DNA of 64,000 nucleotides, taken from contig OZ218963.1 in NCBI GenBank assembly GCA_965112735.1, positions 1,550,001-1,614,000 of the forward strand, read 5' to 3'. Positions 2,239-51,100 of this stretch are shown here, one piece after another. The position numbers were made by a program, and so were the translations under genes. The stretch comes from Phaeosaccion multiseriatum. Lineage: Eukaryota > Protista > Ochrophyta, other classes. Within the stretch, counting starts at the first letter, position 1. Each line of letters opens with the position of its first letter. The notes beneath the pieces were generated by a model. It ran no database searches. It was not told the DNA's origin and saw nothing but the letters and a program-made list of their open reading frames with translations.

Positions 2239-2773
2239 TGTTACGATATAAGGCATCCCAATATGCCTTCAGTATTATCCAAACGTTTGGATAATACTGA
2301 AGGCATATTGGGATGCCTTATATCGTAACAAAAGGTGGGTTCCTTGAGCCCTACACCTTCGCACCGGGGGGTTGGCGCTACCGACACGTTCGTCCCTAAA
2401 TACTGTCCCTTTGTTTATCCCACCAGTTTTCACGTGCTTTTTTCAACAGGGTACGACCCTCTGGTATCTCCTTGGGAACCCCCCTCGGGAAACATCATAT
2501 TATTTTTTCCTCTTTCCTCAGGTAGGACTCGAACCCCTCTTTTGTTACGATATAAGGCATCCCAATATGCCTTCAGTATTATCCAAACGGCGTTTGGATA
2601 ATACTGAAGGCATATTGGGATGCCTTATATCGTAACAAAAGGTGGGTTCCTTGAGCCCTACACCTTCGCACCGGGGGGTTGGCGCTACCGACACGTTCGT
2701 CCCTAAATACTGTCCCTTTGTTTATACGTTTGGATAATACTGAAGGCATATTGGGATGCCATATATCGTAACA
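2239..2773. mobile_element. Palindromic-repeat element family P2, tandem array P-X-P-partial X-half P
   Basis: Perfect 92-bp palindrome at 2239-2330, internal segment 2331-2542, second palindrome 2543-2637, repeat of the internal start 2638-2724, half palindrome to 2773. No TSD visible. Confidence 0.85.
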
Positions 2774-3720: not shown

Positions 3721-5828
3721 TTGGCCCTGTATTGGCCTTTCTATGGCTTAGAAGCTGCGAATGAACTGCAGAATACACACTCACAGGGCCCACCATACAT
3801 CTTGCTGGCGGACTGGGTCTCTGGAATGAGCTCGCCATTGCGATTGCGCTTCCAGGTCCGCTTGTCGGTATGCAGCAAGTCTTCTCCTTCCCTGTGTGCA
3901 CGCTCACGCCACCCCTCCCAACCTCCTGCTAATGCCCACACTTCTCGCACATCTTACAGGCCCTATCAACCGCCGCAACAACCACCAGAACCTCCTCAAT
4001 GCACTCAGAGGCAACCTCGGGCCGCTCAGCACTGGCGACAACACCAAGGGACATTCGACATGGGCCCAACCCAGCAGCAGACACAAGAGACGACGATGCT
4101 TCAGCAGCCCAGTGAGCGAAGAGGGTCTTGTCAGGATACGTTTGGATAATACTGATGGCACATCAGACGCCATATATCCTGACAAAAGGTGAGCTCTGGG
4201 AGTCCTACCTTCACATCGAGGGGGTGGATGCTACCAACACGTTCGCTCCTAAATACTGTCCCCATGCCCATACCATTTTTCTAGTTGTTTCACACTTAGG
4301 GTACCACCCTAATCTGGTATCTTTCACGGGCTCCCCCTCCCGGGAATATCTTTTGCCTCTATGGCGCTGGTAGGACTCGAACCCACATTTTGTCAGGATA
4401 TATGGCGTCTGATGTGCCATCAGTATTATCCAAACGTTTAGGTCTCCCCTTCACGGACACCGCAGCGACAGTGGCAGCTCATCATCCAGCAGAGCCGTCC
4501 GTGACAGTCACGCTTGTAGAGGACGGCAGTCGAGGGATGAGCAGCACTCTCTGCCTCAGCTTCAGCATACAGAGAGCTCTCAATCGCGACAGCAAGAAAG
4601 GAAGGAGCAAGAACAGAAGCGTCGTAGACTGCTGGAAATGGTGCTGCAGCTGAGGGAAGACGCTGTGAAGCGCCTTGACTCCATGAAGAGGATACTGCAA
4701 ACACCAGTCAACCACCAGCAACTCTCTCCCCACCGGCAGTCCTCTCCTCCTTCTCAGCGTATGGAGCGGACTCCTTCACCACCACGAGGACGTACTCAGC
4801 AGCGCTCGTCTACAATGTCGCGGCAGCAGCATCAGCAACCTCAGCGCTCGTCTACAACGTCGCGGCAGCAGCAGCATCAGCAGCAGCAGAGACTGGAGAG
4901 TGGGGGGAAGCTCGAGGTACTGGAGGAGGAGAAACAGCGGCTGCAGGTGGAGAAGGAGACACAGCGGCTGCAGGTGGAGAAGGAGAAACGGCGGCTGCAG
5001 GAGGAGGAGGAGAAGGTGAGACAGCAGCAACAGCGCTCACAGCGCCAACAACAAAAGCTGACCAGTGGCGGGCCACAGCAGCACCCGCAGCCCTGTCAGG
5101 AGCAGCTGCTGCAGCGGGAACAACAGTACCATCGGCAAGAGCGAGCACCGCAACAGCAGAGATTGGAGCAAGACCAGAAACGTGAGGGACAGCTCGAGGT
5201 GCAGGAGAAGCGGGAGCAGCTGCTATTGGAGCAAGAGATAGTGAAGGAAGAGCAGCTGCAGCTGGGGGGAAAGCTGGAGAAGGCGGAGAGAGTGAAGGAA
5301 GAGCAGTTGCAACTGGGGGGAAAGGAGGAGAAGACACTTGATCAGCAGCAACTGCATGAGGATGAGACGCAGAAGAAGCAGAGGCAGCTGCTGGTGAAGG
5401 AGGAGCCTCTGCAACTGCAAGAAGAAGGGAAGGATGAGGAGCTAAAGTTGCGATTGGGGAAGGAGGAGTCAACACTGCAGTTGTCTCCACAGGTGGTGCT
5501 GCAGAAGCGCGAGATTGAGCTGCAGGCCTCTCTACAGCAGGATGTGGAGGAAGAGGAGGGCAAGGGAAGCTCCGCTGAGTGGGAGGAGCTTCATTTGTCT
5601 TTGGGCCTGCCGATGGTGGACGCGAACGGGCCTCAGCGCTTAGGTCAGCTGTACCCTGGGCGGATGGCACCAGTTGGCATTGGTACCGGGAGGTTATCAC
5701 CCTTCAGTCATTGGCAGCTTAGTACTGACAGCTTTTGCGGCAGTACTTGTGGATCTTGGATGGGCATGCAAGGGCGCGGAAGATCATGGAGAGAGATGGC
5801 AGCAAAGAGCGGTATGGGGAATGACTGA
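3721..5828 (+). pseudogene. Long Gln/Glu-rich ORF interrupted by a P2 element; probably an accessory or 3' ORF of an LTR retroelement
   Basis: Removing 4129-4445 joins ORF 3721 (…ERRGS) in frame through PLHGHRSD… to ORF 4638-5828. A PPT and LTR follow at 6593-6905. Confidence 0.6.
4129..4440. mobile_element. Palindromic-repeat element family P2 (subfamily b), P-X-P with arm deletions, TSD GGTCT
   Basis: GGTCT at 4124-4128 and 4441-4445. Arms at 4139-4184 and 4391-4436 are inverted copies. The internal region is homologous to 2331-2542. Confidence 0.85.
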
Positions 5829-8399: not shown

Positions 8400-8865
8400 T
8401 ATGGTCGTGAGGGGGGGGCTTTGGACGTAGACGAGATTGAGGACCTTGATGTCATCGATAATTTGCTCTCTCTTGATGTGATGAAGGTGTACAAGCGTAT
8501 GGCGGAGAAGAAGGACGAGTACGGCTGGATTCCGGCGATGGCGAGGGCCCGCTTGGGCAGTGTCATGTGTTACCTCCCGGTCTGAATTCAGAGGGTAGGT
8601 ACCAGTCTAGCAAAAGTACGACTTCTAACACATGGCTGAAAGCTTTTGCGAGCGTGTACTCTCCTGCGCTAACAATGTTGTTACGGAAGGCAACACACTG
8701 CTCAACGCGAAGGAGGTGGAGATGGTGTGTGTGCTGCGCATGAACAGAGACTTTATGGAGTACATGAGGACAGAGTATCGGGCTGGGGACCCTGCGTGGA
8801 AGGCTAAGGTGTCGGGAGCTGATCGTAAGGCCAGGGACACAGAGTGTGAAGGAGATAAACAGTGA
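8400..8865 (+). pseudogene. hAT transposase C-terminal dimerisation-domain fragment, split by a solo P1 insertion
   Basis: WIPAMARARLGSVM|AESFCERVLSCANNVVTEGNTLL…EMVCVLRMN matches the hAT C-terminal pattern once 8568-8634 is removed. Confidence 0.7.
8568..8630. mobile_element. Solo P1 palindromic repeat (left arm internally deleted) with TSD CATG
   Basis: CATG at 8564-8567 and 8631-8634, TGTT...AACA ends. Excision restores the hAT reading frame. Confidence 0.9.
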
Positions 8866-14547: not shown

Positions 14548-14583
14548 CATGCTGTCTCCTCCATACTAGGCCCACTCTTTCTG

Positions 14584-16191: not shown

Positions 16192-16519
16192 TTTTAGTTC
16201 AGTAGTTTTAGTATGAGGTTTTCAGGACTTTGTCTCGGGGGGGTTTTAGGACAAGTCAGGTGTTTCCTCATTGTGTTTGTGGTAGAGTGTCAGCTATCAA
16301 GAGAGATAGTGATTCAGTCATAGGAGGGTGTTGTGATAAGTATCGCCATTTGTGACTGAGCACTATATCGACGTACAATATCGATGTGGATATCGATATT
16401 CATGTATGGCCACGGCCATCACTTCCTTGAACGCATCTCTCAGTAGGTATTATTAATACACGAGTTGACACTACTCTAGCTTGTCCCTGTCATCGTAGAG
16501 GAGATATCGCAATACGCTC

Positions 16520-17625: not shown

Positions 17626-17872
17626 AGGTCGCTTTTACAACCCGTTTTGACACAATTGCTGGTGAGGATATCCGAAAAACAAAGGAAGGAGAGGAAGGAA
17701 GGACAGGACCGGGAAGGCAGGAGGCACACAGGCCACCTAGGACCAGACTCGGAGGCGGTAGGCAGTACCAGCACACGGCCTACAGGGGACAGTGGCTGCC
17801 ACAGCGGTGGGCAGAGGATAGGCAGCAGGCAGGGAGCGAACAGCAGAAGCGGCACAGCAGTGTGGAGGTGAC

Positions 17873-25702: not shown

Positions 25703-28700
25703 CTGAGTGGTGTGATGCGGTGGGAGTGGAGGTGGCGTTGGTGGATGTGGTGGGTGACACCCTCGCGTTAGGGTGGGAGGATCCGGTGGAAGGTGCGGTG
25801 CTGCGGTTTGCTGCCGCGGCGCAGCAGTTGCAAGGGGAGGCGGTGGCGGCTCAGTCAGTGCCTATGGAGGGACTCTCGTCGGTCACGGCGAGACAGCAGG
25901 CGTCGGCAGGTTTGGAGGCGCTGTGCGTGGACAGTGTGGCGGTCGCGGCGCCAGGCGGCTTCGGGTCGGCTCGGTTGCAGCACGTGGAGCAGATGCGGCA
26001 ATGTGGCTGGGCTCCAGTGACCCTGTCCCACATCAACGAGAAGAAACGGGTGATAGAGGAGTGGTCTCAGCTGCCGCTGCTTCTCAGCCACGTGCCAGCA
26101 GCGCGGTGCACGTACATACGCACGGAGGAGCAGGTGTGGGACATGCGAGCGGCACTGCGGGAGGCGACAGTGGTGGCCATGGACTCGGAGTGGGCTATAC
26201 GCACTCCTCCTCGGCCGGCGTCTCTGCTGCAATTGGGTGTTCAGTATAGCGGCGTCGCCAATTCGGAGCGTGATTGTGGGTTCTGGGTGGATTTGGACAG
26301 TTTGAGTGGCAATGGTGGTATGGAGGCGCTGGCGGCGGTGCTGAGTGAGCTGTGGGGCGACGGGGGGATTATGAAGCTGGCGCATCACTGGAGTCACGAC
26401 CAGCGTGCCCTAGGGAAGTGGCCGGCGTTGGCGCCGCATGTGTGGACCATCGCCAACTTGGTCGACACGACGCATCTATTCAAGGAGGTGTGGCCTGAGC
26501 ACTGCCGTCCCATTGGCTTAGCAGACCTGGTTAGTATGTTCCTGCAGCGTTTTATGAGCAAGGAGGAGCAGAAGACGGATTGGACTCAGCGGGAGCTCAC
26601 TGCGGCCCAGCTCAGCTATGCCTTCGACGATGTGGCCGCATTACTACAGTTGCTGCCGAAGATGCGGGCTTGTGCAGTTCCGGTGCCGTCTGCGATGGAA
26701 GTGAGCGCGGTGGATAGCGGGGTGGCGGGTGTGACGCGTGCTGAGATGCGCGCAGGACAGTTCGTCTCTGCCGGGGTGGGGTATTGGGCCGATCGGGAGC
26801 AGGCCAGTCCACTCTTCATTTTCTCAGCGACCGCTAAGTCAGTGGAGATGATCGACCTGATCCTTCTTTCTTACCGACATCCCCAGTGGACCTGGACGGA
26901 GCTCATGGACGCAGTGGAGCAGTTCAGGGCGCGCTATCGGCCGGCCGCGGCGCGGAGGCGTGGCAAGCTGTCACTACCTCGAGCGGTTATGATTGAGAAG
27001 ACGTGGAGTGCCACCGCCGCAGATACGGGCGGCTACTACACCATGGTGACCCCCACAGAGGCCCAGCAGCAGTGGCAAACCCAAGGTGTGGCGTGGGACA
27101 TCCCTGCCGCCGTCGAGGCCGCGGGCGTGGTGGGTGCATCGACGGTGGAGGCGGAGCGCACACCGACCGCGGCCACAGCAGACGCCACAGCCGGCGGCGG
27201 TGACGGTGCGGGTGGTGCAGGCGGCGGAGGAGGGGTTGAAGGCGGCGGCAGCGGCGGAGGCGGAGGTGGAGGAGGAGGAGGAGGAGGAGGAGGAGGAGGA
27301 GGAGGAGGCGGAGGAGGAGGAGGAGGAGGCGGCGGACTCACAGTTGGCGGCTCGGCCACGGGGGTGGAGGGACGAGAGGCTGGAGCGACTCCAGCGGCTG
27401 CGGCGAGCGAGGCAGCAGCGCTGGCAGACGTGGAGGCCGCAAGGCAGGCTGCTACGCGGCAATTTGGGTGGTCCCTTCCTGGTGTTCCCCCGGCAGTGGG
27501 TGAGCAGTCGTGCGCAGCCCGCATATTGCATGGGGCTCGCACTTACGAGCCCGCGTGGTGGGTGAAGGCGCAGCAGCAGGACCCTGAGCTGGAGGGGTGG
27601 CGTCAGAAGGTCTTGACAGCCTCCCCGGGTGAGGGGGTGTTCGATGCGGGCGGGGGGGAGTTCTCTCTCGATGGCGATGGAGTCCTTCGTCGCAAGTGGG
27701 CCCCCGGGGGCCGACGGTGGCGAGTAGAGCGAACGAGGTTGCAGCTTTGTGTCCCCAAGGCGCTCAGGCCTGCACTACTGCATGCAACTCACGGCGATGC
27801 AGTCTCAGGCGGACACCACGGGCCCGGGCGGATGCTGGACGCGCTGCAGGAGCGCGTGTGGTGGCCCTCCATGAACGGGCACGCGTTGTACTGGGCCCGT
27901 TCGTGTCTTGCGTGCCAGACACGCAAGACCCTACGGAGGCGCCCTCCGCAGGTTCCGCTCTCGTCCATCTCATCGGAGGCCGTGAATGGGCCATGGGCGG
28001 TTATGGGTGCTGACGTGGCGGGACCATTCCCCATGGCCATGGGGGGGGAGGAGTACATTTTGGTGTTTCAAGATTGGTTCACAAAATGGACGGTGGTGGT
28101 ACCATTGTGCGCCAAGGACTATACTGCGGAGGGCATTGCTAGGGCATTCGTGCGGCATGTAGTGACGGTGCTGGGGGCGCCCAAGGTGCTGGTCAGTGAC
28201 CAAGGATCGCAATTCACGAGCACGCTCAAGGCCGATGTGCTGCGCGTGCTCCAGACATCACAAGTCTTCACTACGCCGATGCATCAGCAAGCCAATGGAC
28301 AAGTGGAGCGCTTCATGGCCACGATGAAGGACATGCTGGCGACGACGGTGGAGGCCCAGATGCAGCAGTGGCCTGAGTATGTTCCCGCGCTCACGTACGC
28401 GTACAACTGCAGAGCTCACAAGACCACAGGCCTCTCCCCGTACTATACGCTCTTTGGGCGACACCCCCCGATCCCGCTTCAAGCGATGCTGTCTGCCCTC
28501 GAGGAGGACGGCTCGTTCGAGACGCCTTCGGCATGGGTGCATGAGCTGAGGGCGCGGATGGCAGCGGCGACGCAGGTGGTGACAGGCAGGCGCGAGGAGT
28601 ACCGCAGCAGACTACAGCTCAAGAACCGTGAGCGTCGCTGGCCAGCGCCGATGCCTCCTGGCACCAAGGTGTGGTTGTACCGTCCAGGGGGGGCGGCGCA

Positions 28701-29415
28701 GGAGGAGGGAGAGGCCATGGAGGAGCAGAAGGCACTGACGCTCAAGGCGCTGAGTCATGCTTGGGACGGACCGTTCCAAGTCCTGGCTTGGCCCACACAG
28801 CAGGCCTTTCAGGCGCGACATGGTGGGGTTCTCAACGCTGAGCACTACGCGGTGATGCGCCGGAGCACGGTGTATCTGGATGTGCCTAGGGTCAGAGGCG
28901 GGGGAGTGGAGTTCAAGCAAGGGGCGTACCATCGGGACCTCACCAAGCTGTTCGTTGATGGGGTGAGTGGCCAGCCGGAAGGGCTACCAGATGGGTTCGC
29001 TCGATACCACATCCGTTACTGCTCAGCCCACTGGGGTACTAGTGCACTGCAGGAGAAGCGTAGCGTGACCGATGACGAGGTTGGGATAGGGCGGGCGCCC
29101 GAGCTGGCGCGGATAGTGAAGATGAGGTGGCGTAAGGCCACAGGGCAGCCCCTACGGCGTGAGTACTGTGTACGTTGGGCTGTACGGGAGGGTGGCAGTT
29201 ATCAGACGTGGGAGTGGGACGATTGGCTCTTGCGGCGCGGGGAGAGGGCGGCAATAGAGGCATTCGAGGACTCTTTGGCGCCAGGGGCGTTGGACCCGAG
29301 CGTGCAGCGCAAGCGTGGGCAGCGGTCTAAACGAGAGCGCACCGTGCGCGCCATGTTGCACGAGAAGTGGGGGATGGGCATCGCTGCGGAGACGGCGCAA
29401 CATTTGGGGTTCTAG
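25693..29415 (+). CDS. pol: Gypsy pol part 2: DEDDy 3'-5' exonuclease, integrase (H2C2, DDE, GPF), chromodomain
   Basis: MDSEW…HHWSHD…SKEEQKTDWTQRELTAAQLSYAFDD, GGHHG…CLAC, GADVAGP, SDQGSQF, NGQVER, WDGPF, REYCVRW…TWE. Separated from part 1 only by a 23-bp tandem duplication at 25671-25716. Confidence 0.95.
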   Translation: MPVTEWCDAVGVEVALVDVVGDTLALGWEDPVEGAVLRFAAAAQQLQGEAVAAQSVPMEGLSSVTARQQASAGLEALCVDSVAVAAPGGFGSARLQHVEQMRQCGWAPVTLSHINEKKRVIEEWSQLPLLLSHVPAARCTYIRTEEQVWDMRAALREATVVAMDSEWAIRTPPRPASLLQLGVQYSGVANSERDCGFWVDLDSLSGNGGMEALAAVLSELWGDGGIMKLAHHWSHDQRALGKWPALAPHVWTIANLVDTTHLFKEVWPEHCRPIGLADLVSMFLQRFMSKEEQKTDWTQRELTAAQLSYAFDDVAALLQLLPKMRACAVPVPSAMEVSAVDSGVAGVTRAEMRAGQFVSAGVGYWADREQASPLFIFSATAKSVEMIDLILLSYRHPQWTWTELMDAVEQFRARYRPAAARRRGKLSLPRAVMIEKTWSATAADTGGYYTMVTPTEAQQQWQTQGVAWDIPAAVEAAGVVGASTVEAERTPTAATADATAGGGDGAGGAGGGGGVEGGGSGGGGGGGGGGGGGGGGGGGGGGGGGGGGLTVGGSATGVEGREAGATPAAAASEAAALADVEAARQAATRQFGWSLPGVPPAVGEQSCAARILHGARTYEPAWWVKAQQQDPELEGWRQKVLTASPGEGVFDAGGGEFSLDGDGVLRRKWAPGGRRWRVERTRLQLCVPKALRPALLHATHGDAVSGGHHGPGRMLDALQERVWWPSMNGHALYWARSCLACQTRKTLRRRPPQVPLSSISSEAVNGPWAVMGADVAGPFPMAMGGEEYILVFQDWFTKWTVVVPLCAKDYTAEGIARAFVRHVVTVLGAPKVLVSDQGSQFTSTLKADVLRVLQTSQVFTTPMHQQANGQVERFMATMKDMLATTVEAQMQQWPEYVPALTYAYNCRAHKTTGLSPYYTLFGRHPPIPLQAMLSALEEDGSFETPSAWVHELRARMAAATQVVTGRREEYRSRLQLKNRERRWPAPMPPGTKVWLYRPGGAAQEEGEAMEEQKALTLKALSHAWDGPFQVLAWPTQQAFQARHGGVLNAEHYAVMRRSTVYLDVPRVRGGGVEFKQGAYHRDLTKLFVDGVSGQPEGLPDGFARYHIRYCSAHWGTSALQEKRSVTDDEVGIGRAPELARIVKMRWRKATGQPLRREYCVRWAVREGGSYQTWEWDDWLLRRGERAAIEAFEDSLAPGALDPSVQRKRGQRSKRERTVRAMLHEKWGMGIAAETAQHLGF

Positions 29416-29712
29416 ACCTTGCGGTGGTGGTGGTCGCAGAGACGGGATAGGCATTGGGGATGTTGGAAGGTTACGGGATGTTGGAAGGCCTCAGAGTGAG
29501 AAGGACCATAAGTCAATGGTCGGTGTGTCCTATATTACGTAGATTCTGAGTGGAGGAGGACGTCAGAACGGTGATCTTGGTATAAGGAGAGCCTAGCAGC
29601 AGGGCTTGCAAACGGGTTCCATCCCGTATAATATATCAAGTGTTACCACTTGTCTAAGCGGCTTAGGTCGCTTTTACACTATGAACAAGTGTTTGATAGC
29701 GAGGAAGGAAGC

Positions 29713-29929
29713 TGGAAGGCCTCAGATGAGATGGGCCATAAGTCAATGGCCCAGGCCCAGGCAGACGCGGTGAGAACGGGTGGCGTGGCTCTCACTATCC
29801 TATGTGCGAAGGTGGTCGTTTAGGACTAGCATGCGATAAGTTAATAGAGGCAAGGCTGGCTGCTAGGCTGGCTTTGGGGTTGCTGTTACCTTGTCCGTGT
29901 GTCTAGTTCTATCCTATCTGTAGGCGACA
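29713..29929 (+). mobile_element. 5'-clipped solo LTR related to both the Gypsy 3' LTR and the solo LTR at 1472-1696
   Basis: Start matches 29482-29519. The body matches the reverse complement of 1500-1672. Ends GACA. Confidence 0.75.
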
Positions 29930-31499: not shown

Positions 31500-32092
31500 T
31501 TCTGTCTGTCTCCATCGGCCAGCCTGTCTGGCTTTCTGGCTGTGGGTCTCTTCTGTCTGCCTGTCTGTGTCTCTGCCTGTCTCTCTCTCCCTCTGTCTGT
31601 CTGTCCATCTCTCTGTATTGTGTGTCTGTCTGTCCCTCTGTCTGTCTCTCTGTCCCTCTGTCTGTCTGTCCATTTCTCTGTATTGTGTGTCTGTCTGTCT
31701 CTCTGTCTGTCCCTCTGTCTGTCTGTTGTATTGTGTGTCTGTCTGTCCCTCTGTCTGTCTGTCCATTTCTCTGTATTGTGTGTCTGTCTGTCTCTCTGTC
31801 TGTCCCTCTGTCTGTCTGTCCATCTGTCTGTCTCTCTGTCCCTCTGTCTGTCTGTCCATCTCTCTGTATTGTGTGTCTGTCTCTCTGTCTGTCTCTCTGT
31901 CTGTCCCTCTGTCTGTCTGTCCATCTCTCTGTCTGTCTGTCTGTCCATCTCTCTGTATTGTGTGTCTGTCTGTCTCTCTGTCTGTCCCTCTGTCTGTCTG
32001 TCCATCTCTCTGTATTGTGTGTCTGTCTGTCTCTCTGTCTGTCCCTCTGTCTGTCTGTCTGTCTGTCCATCTCTCTGTCTCTCTGTCCCTCT
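31500..32092. repeat. Complex (TCTG)n-based micro/minisatellite
   Basis: Reiterated TCTG, CCATCTCTCTGTATTGTGTG and TGTCCCTC blocks. Confidence 0.95.
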
Positions 32093-33554
32093 TGTGGAGT
32101 CGTGCACTGAAAGGATGACTACCAATAGCAATAGACCCTACCTGCACATAGCAGGAGGTCAGTCGCTATCCACCAGAGGTGGAACACTCGTGAGAAAACG
32201 AAAGGACGAGAGATGAAGTAATATTTTAGGAGATGGAAAGAACTAAAAGGAAACTGAAACTGAACGAAGAAACTGAAACTATGAACTGACGACATTTGTG
32301 AGCATACCTCCACAGTCCCCCCTTTGAAAGCATGTGTGCATACGCAGACATGATAAGGAAAGAGAAAGAGATGAACACAAATAGGAGAGAAGGAAGTAAG
32401 GAAAAGAGGGAATCCACACAGACTGGCTACACCGACTTGGGAACAGAACAGATGGAGGGAAAAGCTGCCTCACACAAGGGGGAGGGAAAAAGCGGCCACA
32501 CAAACAGTCCAGAAACACCAGAGAGTAGAGAGAATTAGCCCTAGCTACACCGACTTGGGAACAGAACAGATGGAGGGAAAAGCTGCCTCACACAAGGGGG
32601 AGGGAAAAAGCGGCCTCACAAACAGTCTAGAAACACCAGAGGGTAGGGAGAATTATTTCAGGGCACATTGGTACTCAGAAGGTATAGGAAAGAGTCCGAG
32701 GGAAACAGAAGAAGATTAGAAGTGAGGAGAGTAACGGTCACGGAGAAAGGTGACAGTACGTTCCGACGCCTGACGCGGAGGGCCGGTGGCGCCGTCTTTG
32801 ATGTGCTGCGTCGCTGCTGCCTTACCAAGGGCCTCTTGGATATTAATGCCGAGCTCCTTCAGGGTGGCGCGGCCCACGGTAACCAACTTGGTCATGTCGT
32901 TATCCGTGATGGCATAGCTGATCTTGGGCACCAAGAGAGGGCCCTGGAAGGTGTGAAGAATGAGGTCCAAAGGTGGAGTACGCCGCTTGTAGGAAAACAT
33001 GTTGGGGCTTGAGGCCGGCAGCGAGGCCTCCGCTGATTGCAGAAGCTGTGCCTTCTACCCATTCGTCCGCACTCTCGTTGTAGACCACGGCGAGCTGCCC
33101 ACATTTATCCAGCGCCGAAAAGAGCTGCACAATCTGCTGCTGGCATCGATCCACTGCGGCCGCTCTCTGACTGGGATCGGCCAAAAAAGGCTGGATGTAG
33201 ACCTCGATGCTGGAAGAGCCTACCGCGGGTGGTGTACAGCCTACCACCGGGTGTTGTAGTGGCGAGACGGACATTGGTCGCCGCTGAAATTGGAAAGTGT
33301 ATGAAATGTACTATCCGGTAATAACTAGTTATTGTGGAGTCGTGCACTGAAAGGATGACTACCAATAGCAATAGACCCTACCTGCACATAGCAGGAGGTC
33401 AGTCGCTATCCACCAGAGGTGGAACACTCGTGAGAAAACGAAAGGACGAGAGATGAAGTAATATTTTAGGAGATGGAAAGAACTAAAAGGAAACTGAAAC
33501 TGAACGAAGAAACTGAAACTATGAACTGACGACATTTGTGAGCATACCTCCACA
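32093..33554 (-). mobile_element. Internally deleted non-autonomous LTR element (family B), identical 222-bp LTRs
   Basis: LTRs 32093-32314 and 33333-33554, PPT AAAGGGGGA before the 3' LTR, gag start (33274) joined to a protease-like tail (VGRATLKELGINI), ~118-bp tandem duplication at 32426-32655. No TSD. Confidence 0.9.
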
Positions 33555-33970
33555 GGGTGCTGGTATCATCGTCGTCGTCGTCGTGGTCGTTGTCATCTTC
33601 ATGGCCTTCACCCTCCCCGCCCGCGGGACGTTTCGCCCCCACATCAACACCACCCCCCGCCACGCTCACAACCTTCGCCGCCAGCTGGCGCTCGTTGTTC
33701 TGTTCCTCGTGTTGCCTCTTCTTCTGGTTCTTCTTGGCTGCTCTAGCATCTCCGCCCTTCAGCGACTGCATGTATTCCAAAGATGTCAGGAACTCCTGTT
33801 TCTCGCTGTCTTCGAGCGAGGAATCTCGGACCAAGGTCATGGCGTCTTCGGTGGCTTCAGCAGACTTCAGCATCGTGTTCATTCTGTTCTGCATGTTCTT
33901 TGCTGAGATTTCCTGAGTGTATCCGAGAGGGATGGAGAGAGGAGGGGATGGGGCGCGGGGTGGGGGGAAA

Positions 33971-34362: not shown

Positions 34363-36454
34363 GGTCGGAGGAGAAGGAGGGCGGGATACTGAGCCCGTGT
34401 CGTCAGTGGGAGTGCCATGGCTGGCTCTCTGCCTCCCTGGGTAGGATTCAACCGATTGATGGGGATGATGGGATGTCCATTCTCAACAAAAGCGACGACC
34501 ACCATCGTGAATAACAACAGCTTTTACGTAAGAGTACGTAGTTTTTATCTGGGAAAGGACAGACACTCTCCCAACTTCGCAAGTGCTCTACGATCGGGAT
34601 TCCCGGTCCTCAATCGGCTCGGGAAAACGATTGAGGAAAGGGATTTGGGAAAAAAATCGCAGACACCCTAATGGAAAAACTTGTGAGTGTGTGGTTATTT
34701 TTTCAACGAAGAGTCGTAGCGGCCGCTGGTTCGATTACCATCGGGGCCGGGGAGGGGGATACACTTTCGGCCAAGTCGTAGGTGCCTCACAAGACGCACG
34801 GAGTGGGCCCTCAGGTGGACCCAACACCTCGTAGATGGCACTCTATTGATTGATAACGTACTCACCTAGCATGCTGACGGAAGGTGTGGCTTCCGAACAT
34901 AGGCTTGACGATGAGGGTAAAGCCGCTCCCGGTTGTAGACGTAGTTCGTCTTCAATAAATTGTGTCAGCCTGGACAATTTAAGACATGGAATATGGAATG
35001 CAGACAATGGGGGAAGAACGAGGTGGTGCAGAGGATGTGCAAGCGGGAACAATGGGCACGAGCGGGAGTTGTATTAGCGGGGAGTGACTTGAGGCAGTGG
35101 GGTTGTGAGTCACTTACCATCGTTTTCTCGGGGCTTACCTGGATCAACTCCATCTCTAATGGCCTTGATGCTGACCACTGCTTGGAGATGTTTCTTCCTC
35201 TGGGAGTATAGCAACAACTAGAATCAGATCATGCAAAAAGGCCGCATCCTCGCTCCCCCGCGGAAGTTTGCGCGTCCTTCCTTACCATTCTGACTCCCTT
35301 CTCCATCGCGCACGCGCCAGAGTTACAATGCTTTGCCATGAGGGCGACGAAGGGTCTCCAGCAACTCGACTGGGCAGTGATAAGTGCACCGACTCGTAAT
35401 TCCCTTTTGGCCCAACGCCGGCCAAGTACGAGTTCTTCGCCGATGCTCTTGCCGCAGTGGCCCTTGCTGTTGCTGATAACAAGGGCCTTGCCGCCGCCCC
35501 GGGCTTCAATTCTGTCTTGTCGTTTTCTTCTTGCTTTCTGCAGGCCCAGTAGCCTTTGCGGGGGCAAGAAGGGGGTCACACGTCTGCCACATCCTGGTCG
35601 CTCTTCGCCTCTGCCGTCAACAAAAGGAAGAGGCTCCGATCCATTCCCATGTAGTGAGCCGTAATCCTGGCATGGATCTCCCCCTTCTTGCCGCCGGTGG
35701 TCAATCAAAGCGAGCGGGCCGTAGCCTGTGGATAAGCTTAGGAGTTTGAAGGGTGCAGGGTCTTCTCCTGGTGCTCATCTTGGTCGTTGCTGGCCGCGTG
35801 CGGGTGATGCGAGTTGATAAAATTCTCATTCTCTTTGATTTCCTGCCAGCCTTAAGTTTTAAGTTTCAATATCCCTAAACCGCAAATTTAAGACCCACTA
35901 AAGTGGGTCTACAACTTTGGAGGCCCAAAAGCAGGTGATCCCGTCGGAGATGACCCATGCATCTCTCGTACAAAATGAAAGAACAAGATGTCCTTAGTCG
36001 GTATAGAAAGTTGTGCGGGTAACGGGGGACGAGAAGAGGCCATTTGGGATGAAGGAAAATGCTCAGTCAAAATTGTGGCTAAGACCCACTTTAATGGGTC
36101 TTAGCGGCTAAGACCCACTAAAGTGGGTCTTAGCGGGTGGGTTTCTAGGGGCTGTATATGAGTATTGGTGCCCTCCCAGAGGCCCTAGTGTGGCTCACGG
36201 GAGCGGTGAGAAGTGTTCGTAACATACAAGACCGCTCCCCTCCACCCCCATGGTCACATCACAACAAATGGCGTGCACAGGTGCACCACACGTCTTGCAC
36301 TTGTGGTTTCTCTCTTCCACCATGGGCATACGGCACGCTTGCCCGCCACCTGCGGCCGCACACGCGTGTGGCCCTCCCGTTGTACATGCTCCTCCACCTC
36401 CACTCTTGTTCCCCCTTCGTGCTGGCCCGGCTCTGCTGTGCGGTCGTCGCGAGC

Positions 36455-36754
36455 TGTTAGAAGTCGTACTTTTGCTAGACTGATACCTGCCCTCTGAATT
36501 CAGACCGGGAGGTATCAGTCTAGCAAAAGTACGACTTCTAACAAGGCTAGTTGTGAGTTCGAACCTTAGCTGTCGCTTGTGAAAAAGCGTATTTTTCGGC
36601 GAAAACTGTTACCAGCTTGCTGGCCCATGATGCTGATTCTCAGACTGCGAGTTACTTCTCTCCACTATGTGCGGTGGGGGGGGGGGGTTCGTCTTCTAGC
36701 AACGGTCTTGTTAGAAGTCGTACTTTTGCTAGACTGATACCTGCCCTCTGAATT
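36455..36754. mobile_element. P1 element: full 89-bp palindrome, 165-bp internal segment, half palindrome
   Basis: P 36455-36543, X 36544-36708, half P from 36709 ending at the GAATT symmetry centre. Confidence 0.9.
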
Positions 36755-37439
36755 TTCGAATCCTCCCTGAAGTACTCGTGCGAGAGCGTCGCGGCCTCCT
36801 TCTGCCGCCGCCGTGGCTGTCTCGAACTCGCCTTCTTCCCTACATGCCGACCAGCAACCCCCTCTGCTGGCTGCTTTGCCACCACTGCTCCTTCCGCTGC
36901 GGCCCTCATGCCGCTGGACCCGACTCCACTGCTGCCCCTCGGCGGATGCGCTCTGTCGCGTGATGCCGCTGCCGCCCCTGCACCGTCTCCTCCCCTCCCG
37001 CGCCTCTCATCTCCTCCCGCAGAATATCTCCTCCTCGTCCCCTGAGCCTTGCTTGTTCCGTCCGCCCCCCTTCTTCCTTCTCCACCACTACCACTGCAAT
37101 TGCTCGAGACAGATCCGCCGTCCCCCCCTCCTGCGCAGTCTTCTCCTCCGCGACCACCAGTGCGTCCTCCGCTGCCCCCTCCTAAGCGGCGGTGGGCAAG
37201 CGCGTGATGGTGGGGGCTTCCTCCAGTGCCACTGTCCCCCCCCCCGACGTCGTCGAGCGGGTATGGCTGTGTCTCCTGGGCGCCCCCACCTGTGCCCTCC
37301 CTCCCTGACCTGCGCCTGCCGCAGGAGCGCTGTGCCGTCGGTTGGCTCCTCCTCCGCCTCCTCCTCCACTCGCTCCACCCACCCGCTTTTCCCTGAAGTA
37401 GTAGAGTGCCCTCTCTGGACGGCACATCCCGCAGCTCCA

Positions 37440-40320
37440 GCGAGTCGCTTGCGGGTGTGCCATCTCCGGAAGCACGCCTCCTCTCCTTTGGAGTTAGAGA
37501 CGCAGAGGTACACTCGACATGTGGGACAGCGATACCAAGACCGTTGTTCTTGGCAGTACTGGCTGGCAACGAGGACTCTGCTTGGGCACGCCGTCCGCCC
37601 CCGCCCTGTGCGACATGCTCTGCGGGATGTGGTCGAGGGAGCGGTTGAGTCTGAATGCACAGCCTTCTCCGCCCTCGTCGAAGTACGGTATCCTGTACCT
37701 CGCAGGGGGGGCACAGATGCGCGAGTCCCGCGGCGCCCTTCCGGCCGAGCGGCCCTCCTTCCTCGAGCTGCTGTTATCCTCCTCATTGACTGCTGACTGA
37801 GCAACACCCTGCTGCCTACCCCCTGCCTTCCCGTCCTCTGGACTTGGCGTGCCTTCCTGAGCTTCCTCCAACAGCTGGAACCCCGCGGCGTAGGCGAAGT
37901 CCGCCAGGCTGCAGACTCTGTTGAGCTGACGGCGGTGTCCATTCATCCCACGGTATTGGCCTTTTTGGAGATGCTCAGCGCCGACCTTACGCATGCGGAA
38001 GGCGAGGAAGGCGTTGGTGCTGAGGCTCTGCAGTGTCGAAAGCACCACTCTCTGCTGCCACGTTGCGCGTTGGTTCTCCTTCGTTATCACTTGACGCTAT
38101 TGCGTGTGGCCGTCCACCCCCCCCCTTTGTCCGGGAGTACACAAGACTTCTTGTACGCCGTACGCTCGAACTCGCCAACCAAGCTCGTAAGATCGCGTGC
38201 GCCTACCCAGGCGCCCTGCTTGGACACCGCCAGACGAAAGGAAGGGTGAAGAGAGGAGGAGGGGGAGAGGAGTGTGGGTGTTGGGCGCGTGGTTGGGGCG
38301 GTGGACGGCAGCAGGCACGGACTGGGTGTAAAGGAAGTCCCAACAGCGGATGCGGACAAGTCGGAGTGTTAGAAGTCGTACTTTTGCTAGACTGATACCT
38401 GCCCTCTGAATTCAGACCGGGAGGTATCAGTCTAGCAAAAGTACGACTTCTAACAAGACCGTTGCTAGAAGACGAACCCCCCCCCCCCACCGCACATAGT
38501 GGAGAGAAGTAACTCGCAGTCTGAGAATCAGCATCATGGGCCAGCAAGCTGGTAACAGTTTTCGCCGAAAAATACGCTTTTTCACAAGCGACAGCTAAGG
38601 TTCGAACTCACAACTAGCCTTGTTAGAAGTCGTACTTTTGCTAGACTGATACCTGCCCTCTGAATAAAATAATAAATAAATATTATTATTTTATTCAGAG
38701 GGCAGGTATCAGTCTAGCAAAAGTACGACTTCTAACAAGGCTAGTTGTGAGTTCGAACCTTAGCTGTCGCTTGTGAAAAAGCGTATTTTTCGGCGAAAAC
38801 TGTTACCAGCTTGCTGGCCCATGATGCTGATTCTCAGACTGCGAGTTACTTCTCTCCACTATGTGCGGTGGGGGGGGGGGGTTCGTCTTCTAGCAACGGT
38901 CTTGTTAGAAGTCGTACTTTTGCTAGACTGATACCTCCCGGTCTGAATTCAGAGGGCAGGTATCAGTCTAGCAAAAGTACGACTTCTAACAGGAGGAAAC
39001 ACTGACTACGGCTGTTCCACTACAACCTCCCACGCGCACCATCCTTCCTACTCACCTGATGGTCCTGCAGCGGCATGGGAGAGTACGGCAGGAGGTACCC
39101 CATGATCTCATTGAATCGGTCCACTGTAAGGGGCGTCAGGCCCAAGCGCTCCATTATGTCCACGTCCATCTTGAGTGACTTGCTGCTCGTAGACGTAATC
39201 AGGAACATCCCCATCCACTGCTCCATCTCCTTTGTCGTCACGTCCGCCCTTTCCTTCGGCCCCTCGCCCGTCCTCCCCCCTGCTGCCTCCGAGTCGTTTA
39301 AGTGAATACTTTCGTTCGCCCACTCCCTCAGGAGACGCACCGCATCGCCGACAAAGAAGCGAATAGCGTCCGCCTCCGAGGATGGATAAATTCTTTGCCC
39401 GCATGTAAATCCTGAGTTTGTTCACGACACTGGCAGAGACCAACCTATACCTCTCTTCGATGAAGTCTTCCCCAACACTTTCCCCCTGCTGGAGCTGCAG
39501 ATTGAATTTCGTGCCAGCACGGCCAGGCTTCACGAGTCTTTTCCATCCATGCGCCGGGCCCTTCTCCTCTGCCCAACCATCGGCCAGCCCTTGCCTCCGC
39601 GTCGCTCCTCGCCCTCGCCCAGCTGCTGCCACTCCACCTCCTCTGCCTCGTCCTCCTCGGCCTCTTCCTCTGCTCGATCCGGGGCCTTGTAACCCTCCGG
39701 CGAAGACTGGGCCATTGGTCCTTAAGCCCCCATTCGGTTGACCACTTCCTGCCTCCCGTTCTGTGCTCATGTTCACACCACCTCCTCCTCCTCTTCCCTT
39801 CCCTCCTGCGCCTCTACTACTTCCCGCCAAATTCGCGACGCTAGCAGGCGCCGCAGATGGTGCGATACCAGTCGCACTGCCACTTGCACTGTCCTGCCTA
39901 AGGTGATGGCCAGACAGAGGCTGCAGTGTGGCGCTCCAGTTCTCCTTGTCTGTGAGCTGCATTCCCGTATCAGCACCAGAGTCAAAGAACCGTGGGCCGC
40001 CTGCTGCCGAGGCCGCCCCCCCGCCGAGTTGAGCTGAGACTGGTGGTGCGGCTCCTTCTTTCCCCGCCATCTTCGTCGACGTACTCGCTGTCATAGTACC
40101 GTCTACTTTGGGGTTAGCTGCACACGCCGACACACTCATTCTTCTCTTGCTCTGGTCTCCCCCCTGTCCTGGTTGCTGCGGTTCTGCTGACCCACTATCG
40201 GCCACATTTCCATCCTTAAACCTGGAATTCTCCTTCCGTTTCCTCTGTCCCCTCCTTATGTGTGACGGCGAAGGCTCCTGAGCCATCTTGCGCTGCTGTG
40301 TGCCCGTCTGCATGGCATTT
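37440..40320 (-). pseudogene. piggyBac-type transposase pseudogene with intron (39055-38216); most of the catalytic core is missing
   Basis: VTTKEMEQWMGMFL…DRFNEIM, KGGVD-like segment near 38110-38130, WQQRVVL…NAFLAF, C-terminal Cys-rich domain RSWYRCPTCRVYLC…CFRRWH. Several frameshifts. Confidence 0.75.
38367..38991. mobile_element. Head-to-head P1 dimer forming a 625-bp palindrome, TSD GGAG
   Basis: P 38367-38455, inverted X 38456-38620, central P with AT filler 38621-38737, X 38738-38902, P 38903-38991. GGAG at 38363-38366 and 38992-38995. Confidence 0.92.
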
Positions 40321-40754
40321 GCCGACCTCTCCGTGAAGACGCGGGAAGGAGCTATGCCCGGAGCGGAACGAGCGTATGTGCTACAATCGGTGTCTTCACC
40401 AACCGAAGCTCTCGCAGAAGTTACAGAGTGATCTTGACTACCTTCTGTAAAGAGCTGGAGTGTTGATACGTCTGCAACAAGGAGAGAGATGCCCTGAAAC
40501 AAGAGGCAAAAAAAGGCGCTAAGACCCACTTTAGTGGGTCTTAAAATTAATTTTCCCGAAAGTCGATGACCTCTAAAACCCACTTGGGGAGGTTTTCGCG
40601 GTTTAGGGATATCGCATCGATTTTCTGATCTAAATCGATGCGATTGTGGAAGTGGCCATAAGCGGTAGAGGAGACGAAATGCGTATCATTTTTTTTCCTC
40701 GCCAACACAAGCCAGGCGGGATGGGATGAGGAAGAGCGAGAAGCTTACTGTCGA

Positions 40755-48190: not shown

Positions 48191-51100
48191 TCAGTACTTG
48201 GGCCATAGGCCTGCGCTGAGGTCTCCAACGAGTTTCCGGAACACCGCAGTACTCCCGCCGTTGCCGTGCAGCGCTGCCGGGTGACTGTTCGTGAGCTTGC
48301 TATGCACCTGCCCAGCCTCCGGCCCCACCGTAAAGTGTTCGTACGCGACCTCATGCAAGGTGTGGAAGATGATGCCCTCCCCGTCCAGCACGATCCGCCG
48401 TCGGAGCGAACGGTTTCGCAGGTAGAAGCGCGTAAACCAGCGTTGGTCATCGAGGTTGAGGGGGTCCGCGCCCCATCGGCTGTGGTGTTGCTCAATGTCT
48501 TGCTGGATCTCATCGAGCATGGCCTTGACCGCACCTACCGTGCCGATATATGTGCCTGAGGGGGCGAGGTGGGAATGGGGTTGAGTGGAGTAAGGTTGAG
48601 GATGGATTACATTGACATACAGAATTAACCAAAGAATGTGTGGTGGGGCAAGGGCGTCACAGAGGGGATAAAAGTGGATTGAGCCCAGAGCCGCGCTGTA
48701 GGGGATGGCGTGGGGAGCAGAGCAGAGCATATGGCGTACGACACAAATGGCACAAGCCCGACAGAAGTTTGTTTGTTGGTCCCCTTTTCTTTCTCACAGG
48801 GAGAGCTCCTCGCTAATACGATTTTACTAACCTGAGTTGAGGTACGGTAAGGAGGGCTGCTGCCCCTGACCCGACCCGTACGGATAGAGCGACTGCAAGC
48901 CTCTGTCCGGGGAGCTGGCTACCTCACCGCTGAAGACGAGGGCCGAGCCAAAGCCGCGATACAGGGCCACAACCTCGCGAGCCTCCTCAAGTAGCACCAC
49001 GTCATACGCGTCTGCAAGGGAGGGGGTGGAGAGTGGACGGTGGAGGGTGGAGGGTGGAGGGTGGAGAGTGGAGGGGGGAGATTGGAGGATGGAAGGTGGA
49101 GGGTAGAGGATCGGGGTGGGGGGGTGATATATTATGTACATACACACATATGATTATACATACATGAGGGTGAAGGGAGAAGGGTCAAGGGTGGAGCGTG
49201 GAGGCAGGATCCTCCCTCTACTCTCCACCCTTCATCCTCTACCGTCCACCTCCTCCCTCCACTCCCCGCCCTTCATCCTCTACCCTCCACCTCCTCCCTC
49301 CGCTCTCCGCCCTTCATCCTGTACCCCCCACCTCCTCCCTCCACTCTCCACCCTTCATCCTCCACCCTCCACCTCCTCCCTCCACTCTCCGCCCTTCATC
49401 CTCTACCCTCCACCTCCTCCCTCCGCTCTCCACTCTTCATCCTCTACCCTCCACCTCCTCCATGCACTCTCCACCCTTCATCCTCTACCCTCCACCTCCT
49501 CCCTCCACTCCCCGCCCTTCATCCTCTACCCTCCGCTCTCCACCCTTCATCCTGTACCCTCCACCTCCTCCCTCCACTCTCCACTCGTCATCCTGTACCC
49601 CCCACCTCCCTCCACTCTCCACCCTTCATCCTCCACCCTCCACCTCCTCCCTCCACTCTCCACCCTTCATCCTCTACCCTCCACCTCCTCCCTCCGCTCT
49701 CCACCCTTCATCCTCTACCCTCCACCTCCTCCCTCCACTCTCCACTCTTCATCCTCTATCCTCCACCTCCTCCCTCCACTCTCCACTCTTCATCCTGTAC
49801 CCCCCACCTCCTCCCTCCACTCTCCACCCTTCATCCTCTACCCTCCACCTCCTCCCTCCACTCTCCACTCTTCATCCAGTACCCCCCACCTCCTCCCTCC
49901 ACTCTCCACCCTTCATTCTCTACCCTCCACCTCCTCCCTCCACTCCCCGCCCTTCATCCTCTACCCTCCACCTCCTCCCTCCACTCTCCACCTTTCATCC
50001 TGTACCTCCTCCCTCCACTCTCCACTCTTCATCCTCTACCCTCCACCTCCTCCCTCCGCTCTCCACCCTTCATCCTCTACCCTCCACCTCCTCCCTCCAC
50101 TCTCCACCCTTCATCCTCTACCCTCCACCTCCTCCCTCCACTCTCCACCCTTCATTCTATATATAAAAATATATACCCTCCACCTCCTCCCTCCACTCTC
50201 CACTCTTCATCCAGTACCCCCCACCTCCTCCCTCCACTCTCCACCCTTCATCCTGTACCCCCCACCTCCTCCCTCCACTCTCCACCCTTCATCCTGTACC
50301 CTCCACCTCCTCCCTCCACTCTCCACCCTTCATCGTCTACCGTCCACCTCCTCCCTCCACTCCCCGCCCTTCATCCTCTACCCTCCACCTCCTCCCTCCA
50401 CTCTCCACCCTTCATCCTGTACCTCCTCCCTCCACTCTCCACCCATCATCCTCTGCCCTCCACCTCCTCCCTCCACTCTCCACCCTTCATCCTGTACCCT
50501 CCACCTCCTCCCTCCACTCTCCACCCTTCATTCTATATATATAAATATATACCCTCCACCTCCTCCCTCCACTCTCCACCCTTCATCCTCTACCCTTCAT
50601 GCTCTACCCTTCATTCTATATATATAAATATATACCCTCCACCTCCTCTCTCCACTCTCCACCCTTCATCCTCTACCCCCCACCTCCTCCCTCCACTCTC
50701 CACCCTTCATCGTCTACCCTCCACCTCCTCCCTCCACTCTCCACCCTTCATCGTCTACCCTCCACCTCCTCCCTCCAATCTCCACCCTTCATCCTCTACC
50801 CCCCACCTCCTCCCTTCACTCTCCACTCTTCATCCTGTACCCTCCACCTCCTCCCTCCACTCTCCACCCTTCATCCTCTACCCTCCACCTCCTCCCTCCA
50901 CTCTCCACTCTTCATCCTGTACCCCCCACCTCCTCCCTCCACTCTCCACCCTTCATCCTCTACCCTCCACCTCCTCCCTCCACTCCCCGCCCTTCATCCT
51001 CTACCCTCCACCTCCTCTCTCCACCCTTCATCCTCTACCCTCCACCTCCTCCCTCCACTCTCCACTCTTCATCCTGTACCCTCCACCTCCTCCCTCCACT

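What the first reader, a model, noticed from the sequence alone, without database searches (positions are those of the whole stretch)
38367..38991. 625-bp head-to-head dimer with AT-only hinge and flip/flop isomers
Seen: P-X(inverted)-P*-X-P is one near-perfect palindrome bounded by a single TSD. The central unit has two identical arms joined by an A/T-only filler of ~27 nt (38666-38692). The asymmetric core (GCCCT versus CCCGG arm) is oriented oppositely relative to X here and at 36455. Several copies stop or start at the symmetry centre (36754, 4436-4439, 2727). Established: inverted dimers and flip/flop termini are typical of hairpin-primed replication (parvoviruses, poxviruses). Inference: an integrated replication intermediate. 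Recombinational inversion of X between arms is the alternative.
Basis: partly seen in the sequence, partly recalled or inferred. Interest (0 to 1): 0.75.

Follow-up and report, generated by a model that had tools for sequence, protein, structure and literature searches.

The report
Fold-back dimer of palindrome-ended mini-element
Two copies of a small gene-less jumping element sit head to head as one 625-base mirror-image insertion in what is likely an algal genome, probably because a copying enzyme turned round at the centre of the element's hairpin-shaped end; the family's design (hairpin end repeats plus a predicted tRNA-type promoter) is unusual, but nothing here shows virus-like replication.

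Summary
38367-38991 is a palindrome with 309-bp perfect arms, a 7-nt A/T loop and one 4-bp target duplication. It is a head-to-head dimer of a unit (89-bp palindromic repeat P, 165-bp spacer X, half P) of a multi-copy gene-less element with TG...CA ends, in a probable ochrophyte alga. The 27-nt hinge is itself self-complementary, so the dimer was most likely made by fold-back synthesis from a strand ending at P's symmetry axis. Contigs of public runs show another copy with a short A/T hinge and one ending at the axis with AAA. New here: three sequence variants in two unrelated families share a predicted Pol III promoter (A-box in P, B-box in X) whose inferred start lies at the axis, and an X-end panhandle. 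They lack PBS and PPT. That points to an RNA-based, integrase-inserted element more than a parvovirus-like replicon: no Rep or polymerase gene was found, and flip/flop is exactly an X inversion. Whether the fold-back came before integration (favoured) or as repair in place is undecided. This copy's hinge was not verified in independent reads.

The parts
38363..38366 (+). Left copy of the 4-bp target-site duplication (GGAG)
38367..38455 (+). Palindromic terminal repeat P, 89 bp: 34-bp perfect arms, asymmetric core, TGTTA...TAACA ends
38456..38620 (-). Spacer X (165 bp), inverted copy; 100% identical to 36544-36708
38621..38665 (+). Inner arm (half P) ending one base past the symmetry axis
38666..38692 (.). 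A/T-only hinge, 27 nt: 10-bp stem plus 7-nt loop (38676-38682); first half parses as A(n)T units; longest match elsewhere in the window is 9 nt
38693..38737 (+). Inner arm, mirror copy; carries the A-box-like motif at 38715-38725
38738..38902 (+). Spacer X, promoter-sense copy; B-box-like motif at 38751-38759; T5 run at 38786-38790; its two ends are imperfect inverted repeats
38903..38991 (+). Palindromic terminal repeat P, reverse complement of the left P
38992..38995 (+). Right copy of the 4-bp target-site duplication (GGAG)
36455..36754 (+). Same family, other isomer: P - X - half P; right arm and duplication missing
8568..8630 (+). Solo P with a left-arm deletion, flanked by a 4-bp duplication (CATG); removing it rejoins a reading frame of 72 + 76 codons
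1137..1239 (-). Diverged subfamily copy: arm-deleted P plus the first ~50 nt of X with a perfect B-box
2239..2773 (-). Second family, variant 2: P2 - X2 - P2 - partial X2 - half P2 (tandem); 46-bp perfect arms with no spacer; no clean target duplication
4129..4441 (-). Second family, variant 3: both outer arms deleted; 4- or 5-bp target duplication kept; perfect B-box

Best explanation
The 625-bp palindrome is one insertion of a head-to-head dimer of a multi-copy gene-less element with TG...CA ends and a 4-bp target duplication, likely made by fold-back synthesis during the element's own, probably RNA-templated, copying and then likely inserted by a Gypsy/Ginger-type integrase. Shown: anatomy, duplication, isomers, hinge symmetry, many other insertion sites. 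Inferred steps: (1) Pol III reads an A-box in P's inner arm and a B-box just inside X and starts at about P's symmetry axis. (2) A reverse transcriptase supplied in trans makes a minus strand P - X' - half P whose 3' end falls at the axis. (3) Instead of the normal strand transfer, the end gains an untemplated A-rich tail, with slips on the terminal ATT giving A(n)T units, then snaps back and the whole strand is recopied. (4) The unfolded dimer has TG...CA at both ends and is integrated. Flip and flop are the two orientations of X between its 36-bp inverted arms, each then propagated. The fold-back step alone I put at about 0.8; the stated confidence is for the whole chain.
For: Hinge has 10 self-complementary pairs (248 of 200,000 shuffles) and no match over 9 nt elsewhere in the window; it parses as AAAAT, AAT, AAAT, AAAT, AT. 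The two halves are identical over 299 of 299 nt. The hinge sits on the B-box side of X, where a cDNA 3' end would lie. All 6 A-box/B-box pairs in the window lie in these elements, 35-38 nt apart, with the A-box 17-22 nt from the axis in two unrelated families; 100 Markov windows gave mean 0.34, max 2. In contigs of public runs: run X2 has another copy whose two same-type arms meet at a 6-nt A/T spacer; run X5 (other sample and study) has a copy ending at the same axis base with AAA, and a solo P whose flanks are consistent with a 4-bp duplication; summed depth over P is more than 100 times that of a nearby contig in X1 and X2. X ends pair with each other (21, 0 and 0 of 2000 shuffles), more stably on the promoter-sense strand in 3 of 3 variants. 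Variants 2 and 3 have no T4 inside X on the sense strand but a T4 at the X/P junction. A Gypsy element in the window has TGT...ACA-type ends, an apparent 4-bp duplication and a self-priming-type site.
Against: No transcript and no autonomous partner were shown. The A/B pattern was tuned on these copies and 4 of the 6 hits are one family; the untuned strict B-box scan gave 7 sites in the window, 3 in these elements, and the main family misses that consensus by its last base. The 625-bp family has a T5 run at X position 49, which should stop Pol III early. There is no PBS or PPT, so the priming route is unknown. Predicted RNAs of variants 1 and 2 fold no better than shuffles (z -0.9, -1.2; variant 3 z -3.0), and G-rich strands gain from G-U pairs anyway. 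A hairpin product has only one open end, so an extra step is needed before two-ended integration. P's asymmetric core is kept in all 4 copies with an intact core, which pure fold-back from the axis would erase. Axis-ended copies at 4436 and 36753 are explained as well by arm deletion after insertion.
Confidence: 0.45

Rival explanations
1. Repair in place. A normal P-X-P copy was already inserted; one P extruded as a cruciform and was cut at its tip; the end gained an A/T tail (Pol theta-like), folded back, recopied X and the other P, and annealed to the remaining 34-bp arm on the far side. The result keeps the single target duplication.
For: Gives exactly the observed sequence (reasoning). 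P arms are plainly unstable: arm deletions at 8568, 1190, 4129 and 36754. A break next to inverted repeats drives fold-back duplications in yeast (PMC10622511, abstract seen). Pol theta alternates untemplated addition and snap-back copying (PMC4912351, passages seen). No integrase has to handle a dimer.
Against: Needs the synthesis to be captured precisely at the element's far end rather than running into the flank. Gives no reason for the promoter geometry or for the hinge lying on the B-box side (a one-in-two coincidence). A-rich additions at the same axis base in three copies fit a defined template end somewhat better than a nuclease cut.
Confidence: 0.3
2. A DNA-only rolling-hairpin replicon (parvovirus- or poxvirus-like): P is a hairpin telomere with flip/flop forms, and the dimer is an integrated replicative form.
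For: P folds as a long hairpin with a bulged tip in two isomers. The unit has long inverted ends that run on into X. Variants 2 and 3 differ at 8 positions and 1 gap in the arm, yet each stays perfectly mirrored.
Against: No Rep, NS1 or DNA polymerase family in 97 of 97 ORFs. No exact match of either palindrome probe in viral or metagenome contigs. The central junction is a one-off hinge, not the normal P that a regular concatemer junction would carry. Both informative units have their P copies in direct orientation, and no mixed isomer was seen (2 events only).
Confidence: 0.1
3. Sequencing, amplification or assembly artefact (fold-back chimera).
For: No listed contig spans this copy's hinge or its flank junction (448 records not shown), and the second read-laying run gave no answer. 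The right flank differs from the laid contigs at a few places (39384 in 4 of 4 runs, 39391 in 3 of 4), so the window has either errors or a minor paralogue there.
Against: A fold-back chimera would mirror the flank; here the flanks differ and share a 4-bp duplication. It would not add a 27-nt untemplated, self-complementary filler. The same kind of symmetric A/T junction exists in contigs of run X2 in another subfamily.
Confidence: 0.08
4. Two separate half-elements, each with one good TG...CA end, were inserted together by one integrase complex, and their free axis ends were joined with filler; P-X-P is a composite Ginger-type DNA transposon.
For: Ends match the Ginger TGTNR pattern with a 4-bp duplication (PMC2836005 passages). 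Solo P copies carry their own duplications. Composite designs with solo and tandem forms are known in KolobokP (PMC9587614 passages).
Against: Plain end-joining does not make the filler self-complementary. It needs two identical molecules of the same isomer broken at the same base.
Confidence: 0.07

Closest known systems
TRIMp3 elements: Helenus (tRNA-like LTR), Cassandra and Ajax (5S-like LTR); Kojima 2024, PMC10886601 (abstract, introduction and passages seen)
   Same: Under 1 kb, gene-less, terminal direct repeats, solo repeats and tandem arrays, 4-5 bp duplication, Pol III promoter boxes without a functional tRNA.
   Different: Here the repeat is itself a palindrome, only the A-box lies in the repeat while the B-box lies in the spacer, and there is no PBS or PPT. 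The paper's main text has 0 occurrences of 'palindrom' and 'inverted'.
Ginger1/Ginger2 DNA transposons; Bao et al. 2010, PMC2836005 (passages seen)
   Same: TGTNR ends, 4-bp duplication, terminal inverted repeats; a solo P looks like a Ginger-type MITE.
   Different: No transposase seen; duplications (GGAG, CATG, probably GACG) do not follow the CCGG/CCGT or RTATAY preferences; composite P-X-P design, Pol III boxes and fold-back dimers are not in the passages seen.
KolobokP composite-like DNA transposons; Kojima and Bao 2022, PMC9587614 (passages seen)
   Same: Direct terminal repeats that carry their own inverted repeats; solo repeats; multimers sharing a repeat.
   Different: KolobokP repeats are about 450 or 660 bp with TIRs up to 18 bp and the element encodes a transposase and a nuclease; P is 89-92 bp, wholly palindromic, and X is non-coding.
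Fold-back inversions from breaks at short inverted repeats (PMC10622511, abstract seen) and Pol theta snap-back insertions (PMC4912351, passages seen)
   Same: A 3' end next to an inverted repeat primes on itself and makes an inverted duplication; untemplated plus snap-back filler.
   Different: Those duplications run into the chromosome; here the duplication stops exactly at the element's ends inside one target duplication.
Rolling-hairpin replicons: AAV/parvovirus ITRs and poxvirus telomeres (recalled, from no call)
   Same: Hairpin ends in two complementary isomers; head-to-head dimers.
   Different: No Rep, resolvase or polymerase; integrase-type ends and duplication; the dimer junction is an aberrant hinge instead of the normal terminal palindrome.

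Membership tests
TRIM / TRIMp3 (Helenus-type) | Under 1 kb, non-coding, two direct terminal repeats with TG...CA ends | tested here: met
   P2-X2-P2 at 2239-2637; the 625-bp family shows P-X-half P in direct orientation, with no intact monomer in the window
TRIM / TRIMp3 (Helenus-type) | 4-5 bp target-site duplication | tested here: met
   Present in 3 of 5 window copies checked (38367, 8568, 4129), absent at 2239 and 36455
TRIM / TRIMp3 (Helenus-type) | tRNA primer-binding site next to the 5' repeat | tested here: not met
   None of the 6 X ends begins with the TGG expected for a tRNA CCA end within 3 nt; not compared with the organism's own tRNAs, which were not available
TRIM / TRIMp3 (Helenus-type) | Polypurine tract before the 3' repeat | tested here: not met
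   3-6 purines in the last 12 nt at all 6 X ends
TRIM / TRIMp3 (Helenus-type) | Small-RNA-derived promoter (boxes A and B) inside the LTR | tested here: not met
   A-box-like motif in P, B-box 8-13 nt inside X; no tRNA found by ARAGORN or Rfam
TRIM / TRIMp3 (Helenus-type) | Mobilised by an autonomous LTR retrotransposon through RNA | not testable with these tools
   No genome held; no RNA holder listed
Ginger DNA transposons (non-autonomous) | TGTNR termini and 4-bp duplication | tested here: met
   TGTTA and TGTCA ends; duplications; definition from PMC2836005
Ginger DNA transposons (non-autonomous) | Target preference CCGG/CCGT (Ginger1) or RTATAY (Ginger2) | tested here: not met
   GGAG, CATG, GTCT/GGTCT in the window; 0 of 3 fit
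Ginger DNA transposons (non-autonomous) | Autonomous partner with shared TIRs and an integrase-only ORF | tested here: inconclusive
   The only rve hit among 97 ORFs lies in the Gypsy pol; rest of the genome not available
KolobokP | Repeat-spacer-repeat with solo and tandem forms, repeats with own inverted ends | tested here: met
KolobokP | Repeats of about 450 or 660 bp; DDD/E transposase and His-Me nuclease in the spacer | tested here: not met
   P 89-92 bp, X 165-212 bp non-coding
Rolling-hairpin replicons (parvovirus/poxvirus type) | Terminal hairpin in two isomers | tested here: met
   Sequence level only
Rolling-hairpin replicons (parvovirus/poxvirus type) | Rep/NS1 nickase, resolvase or own DNA polymerase | tested here: not met
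   No such Pfam family in 97 of 97 ORFs of at least 150 aa in the window; a helper elsewhere in the genome is not excluded
Rolling-hairpin replicons (parvovirus/poxvirus type) | Free covalently closed molecules; mixed flip/flop isomers in about equal numbers | not testable with these tools
   Two informative units only; 36-bp identical arms are too long for the laid contigs to phase

The most novel reading that the evidence does not exclude
These are a class of Pol III-driven mini-retroelements whose 'LTR' is made by fold-back: the RNA starts at the palindrome axis, its U-ended 3' end pairs back at the CA end through the X panhandle and primes its own reverse transcription, and hairpin snap-back replaces the tRNA primer and polypurine tract. 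The 625-bp dimer is a trapped, unresolved intermediate of that cycle, inserted by a self-priming Gypsy partner.
Probability: 0.2. Interest if true: 0.8.

Novelty: new variant of a known kind. Interest (0 to 1): 0.5.

Why it matters
If the dimer is only a repair scar, it is a neat but local example of known fold-back chemistry. The family matters more. A non-autonomous element whose terminal repeats are whole palindromes, with a promoter split between repeat and spacer and neither PBS nor PPT, did not turn up in 10 literature searches (listings and abstracts read, open-access library only). If it copies itself by self-primed fold-back reverse transcription, it would be a third priming route for LTR-like elements and a link between MITE-like and LTR-like designs. 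The predictions (RNA 5' end at the axis, hinges on the promoter side, hairpin cDNA) are cheap to test in a culturable alga. Such elements are also likely to be mis-annotated as MITEs or miRNA hairpins (Rfam gave sub-threshold miRNA hits at 2533-2647).

Tried and rejected
No whole genome is held, so no genome-wide census of isomers or truncations. Exact probes for both palindromes found 0 loci in metagenome contigs and 0 in viral contigs. ARAGORN found 0 tRNAs; Rfam gave 13 matches, all below gathering score, mostly generic hairpins. No RNA holder listed. The second read-laying run, aimed at the hinge and left junction, gave no answer, so this copy's hinge and the empty site remain unverified. 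In one search no listed record spans the hinge; run X2 has 2 records running over the stretch ends against 1 in X1 and X5, which could be the hinge but is not shown. An X2 record leaves the flank at 38998 and cannot be read as an empty site. Depths there are summed over contigs and are no copy number. X1 and X2 are one sample and may be the assembly's source; X6 holds a relative (33 differences in 789 nt). Removing the 625-bp element restores no long frame; for the 4129 copy 1 of 5 offsets tried restored 199+200 codons, which is weak alone. The flanking 525-aa ORF has no Pfam hit and no usable Atlas hit. Rejected: hammerhead ribozyme in X (core motif not shared across variants, by eye; no Rfam hit); canonical TRIM (no PBS or PPT); Tf1-type self-priming of P-X-P from its 5' end (only a 6-bp match, in one family); Penelope-like inverted pLTR and DIRS (they do not give TG...CA with a 4-bp duplication; recalled). 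Earlier-findings look-ups by sequence and place returned nothing. No supplements were read.
Full report
Observation. The 625 bases at 38367-38991 equal their own reverse complement except for 7 central nt; the arms are 309 nt and 100% complementary. GGAG lies on both sides. The parts are P (89 bp, 34-bp perfect arms, asymmetric core), X inverted (165 bp), a 45-nt arm, a 27-nt A/T hinge, the same arm mirrored, X, and P reversed. The copy at 36455 is the left half with X inverted, letter for letter.

Host and setting. No genome is held. A phosphatidylserine synthase in the window is closest (48-51%) to Tribonema and brown-algal proteins among 29 hits, so the host is probably an ochrophyte alga. 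The window is rich in nested Copia and Gypsy elements. The element lies beside a 525-aa ORF with no Pfam or Atlas hit, in a flank whose summed contig depth is about three times that of a nearby gene in runs X1 and X2 (the tool warns that depth is no copy number).

The family. Window copies of the same family are at 36455, 8568 (solo P with a CATG duplication) and 1137-1239. A second family, unrelated in sequence, has the same design at 2239-2773 (tandem) and 4129-4441; its two variants differ at 8 positions and 1 gap in the arm, yet each is perfectly mirrored over 46 and 50 nt. A target duplication is present in 3 of 5 copies checked. In contigs of four public runs P continues into several different flanks, summed depth over P is 12,753 and 13,337 against 72 and 110 on a nearby contig in X1 and X2, and the family is also in X5 (other sample and study) and in X6, which holds a relative. 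So this is a dispersed, multi-copy element with integrase-type TG...CA ends.

Every variant has a B-box-like motif 8-13 nt inside one end of X and an A-box-like motif 35-38 nt upstream, inside P's inner arm, 17-22 nt from the symmetry axis. All 6 such pairs in the window are in these elements; 100 Markov windows gave a mean of 0.34. The pattern was tuned on these copies and 4 of the 6 are one family; the untuned strict B-box scan gave 7 sites, 3 of them here. Type-2 Pol III promoters start about 18-20 nt upstream of the A-box (recalled), which puts the predicted start at the axis. The two ends of X are imperfect inverted repeats in all three variants (21, 0 and 0 of 2000 shuffles) and pair better on the promoter-sense strand in 3 of 3, though G-rich strands are favoured by G-U pairs in any case. 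Variants 2 and 3 have no T4 in X on that strand and a T4 exactly at the X/P junction; the 625-bp family has a T5 at X position 49, which argues against full-length Pol III transcripts there. There is no PBS or PPT at any of 6 X ends. No tRNA or other RNA family reached threshold.

How the dimer was made. Ordinary P has two different cores; the central unit has the same core twice, and the hinge has 10 self-complementary pairs (248 of 200,000 shuffles) with no match over 9 nt elsewhere in the window. Its first half parses into A(n)T units, as expected from untemplated A addition alternating with slips on a terminal ATT (inference). This is the signature of a 3' end at the axis that was tailed, snapped back and recopied its own strand. 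The event type recurs: run X2 has another subfamily copy with two same-type arms joined by a 6-nt A/T spacer, and run X5 a copy ending at the same base with AAA (one contig each).

Before or after integration. Two routes give this exact sequence. In the first, a reverse transcriptase runs off the RNA 5' end at the axis, snaps back, and the dimer is later integrated; the hinge lies on the B-box side, as this predicts, but that is a one-in-two coincidence, and a hairpin needs one more step to expose two ends. In the second, an inserted copy is cut at a cruciform tip and repaired by fold-back and annealing to the remaining arm; breaks beside inverted repeats give fold-back duplications in yeast (PMC10622511, abstract) and Pol theta mixes untemplated and snap-back synthesis (PMC4912351, passages). 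P arms are visibly unstable in place: four window copies have lost part of an arm, and the 4129 copy kept its duplication, so stops at the centre are not by themselves evidence of intermediates. I put the first route at 0.45 and the second at 0.3.

Flip and flop. The isomers are exactly an inversion of X between 36-bp inverted arms. Both informative units carry P in direct orientation; no mixed isomer was seen, but two events cannot decide. No Rep, NS1 or DNA polymerase family was hit in 97 of 97 ORFs, and exact probes found nothing in viral or metagenome contigs. A parvovirus-like cycle gets 0.1.

Artefact. The flanks are different and share a duplication, and the filler is untemplated and self-complementary, which a simple chimera does not give. 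But no listed contig spans this copy's hinge (448 records not shown), the follow-up call gave no answer, and the right flank differs from the contigs at a few places. I leave 0.08.

Comparison with known systems. It works most like a TRIMp3 element (PMC10886601; abstract, introduction and passages) but fails the PBS, PPT and promoter-in-LTR tests, so it is not filed there. Its ends fit Ginger (PMC2836005 passages) but not the target preferences, and no transposase was seen; GingerRoot has 6-bp duplications (PMC6839031 passages). Its architecture parallels KolobokP (PMC9587614 passages) at a fifth of the repeat size and without genes. TRIMs without a clear PBS, and self-priming Tf1-type elements, are noted in PMC6934838 (passages). 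A candidate partner type is in the window: a Gypsy element with a TGT...ACA 3' LTR, an apparent CTAT duplication and an 8-nt site after the 5' LTR end that is complementary to the LTR 29 nt downstream of a TATA-like motif (100 of 20,000 shuffles); its ends do not match P beyond TGTT and ACA, so the link is unproven. A search for palindromic LTRs or terminal repeats listed 23 of 24 papers, none by title or abstract about such a transposon.

Verdict. Real structure, likely a fold-back dimer of an unusual non-autonomous element; the replication-intermediate reading is plausible but unproven, and the virus analogy is not supported. New variant of a known kind; interest 0.5, with a 0.2 chance of a self-primed fold-back retroelement class worth 0.8.

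Noticed in passing
window 25693-29415 (+): The Gypsy pol region carries a 3'-5' exonuclease domain (PF01612, E 4e-15) upstream of the integrase. None of the 5 homologues found lists that domain (only the 7985 best candidates were scored).
   Followed up: partly
window 17626-17647 and 29460-29678: The same Gypsy element seems to be self-priming (8-nt complement to its LTR near the likely start), has a 5' LTR cut down to 14 nt, and an apparent 4-bp duplication CTAT.
   Followed up: partly
window 8352-8862: The solo P interrupts a frame that resembles the C-terminal part of a hAT-like transposase (resemblance recalled; no Pfam hit for either half), inside a repeat-rich element with a 21-bp-arm palindrome at 8184-8228.
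   Followed up: partly
window 49016-51540: Array of about 41-bp C/T-rich units with short inverted copies at both ends and extreme GC skew.
   Followed up: no
window 9159-17625 and 32092-33555: Nested Copia elements; 188-bp identical LTR parts at 11110 and 16329; 224-bp identical repeats at 32092 and 33332, related in inverted orientation to 9159-9570.
   Followed up: no
window 36754-36764: The 36455 copy runs from the axis into a B-box-like 10-mer; run X5 has a contig that joins the axis directly to a B-box of a diverged X. Axis-to-B-box deletions may be recurrent.
   Followed up: no
window 39108-40685 (-): 525-aa low-complexity ORF in a flank of raised contig depth; no Pfam or Atlas hit; conserved at about 95% in the relative in run X6.
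   Followed up: partly
window 1498-1673 and 29745-29916; 36078-36134: An 80%-identical inverted pair of A/T-rich non-coding repeats, and a small element with 16-bp inverted arms.
   Followed up: no
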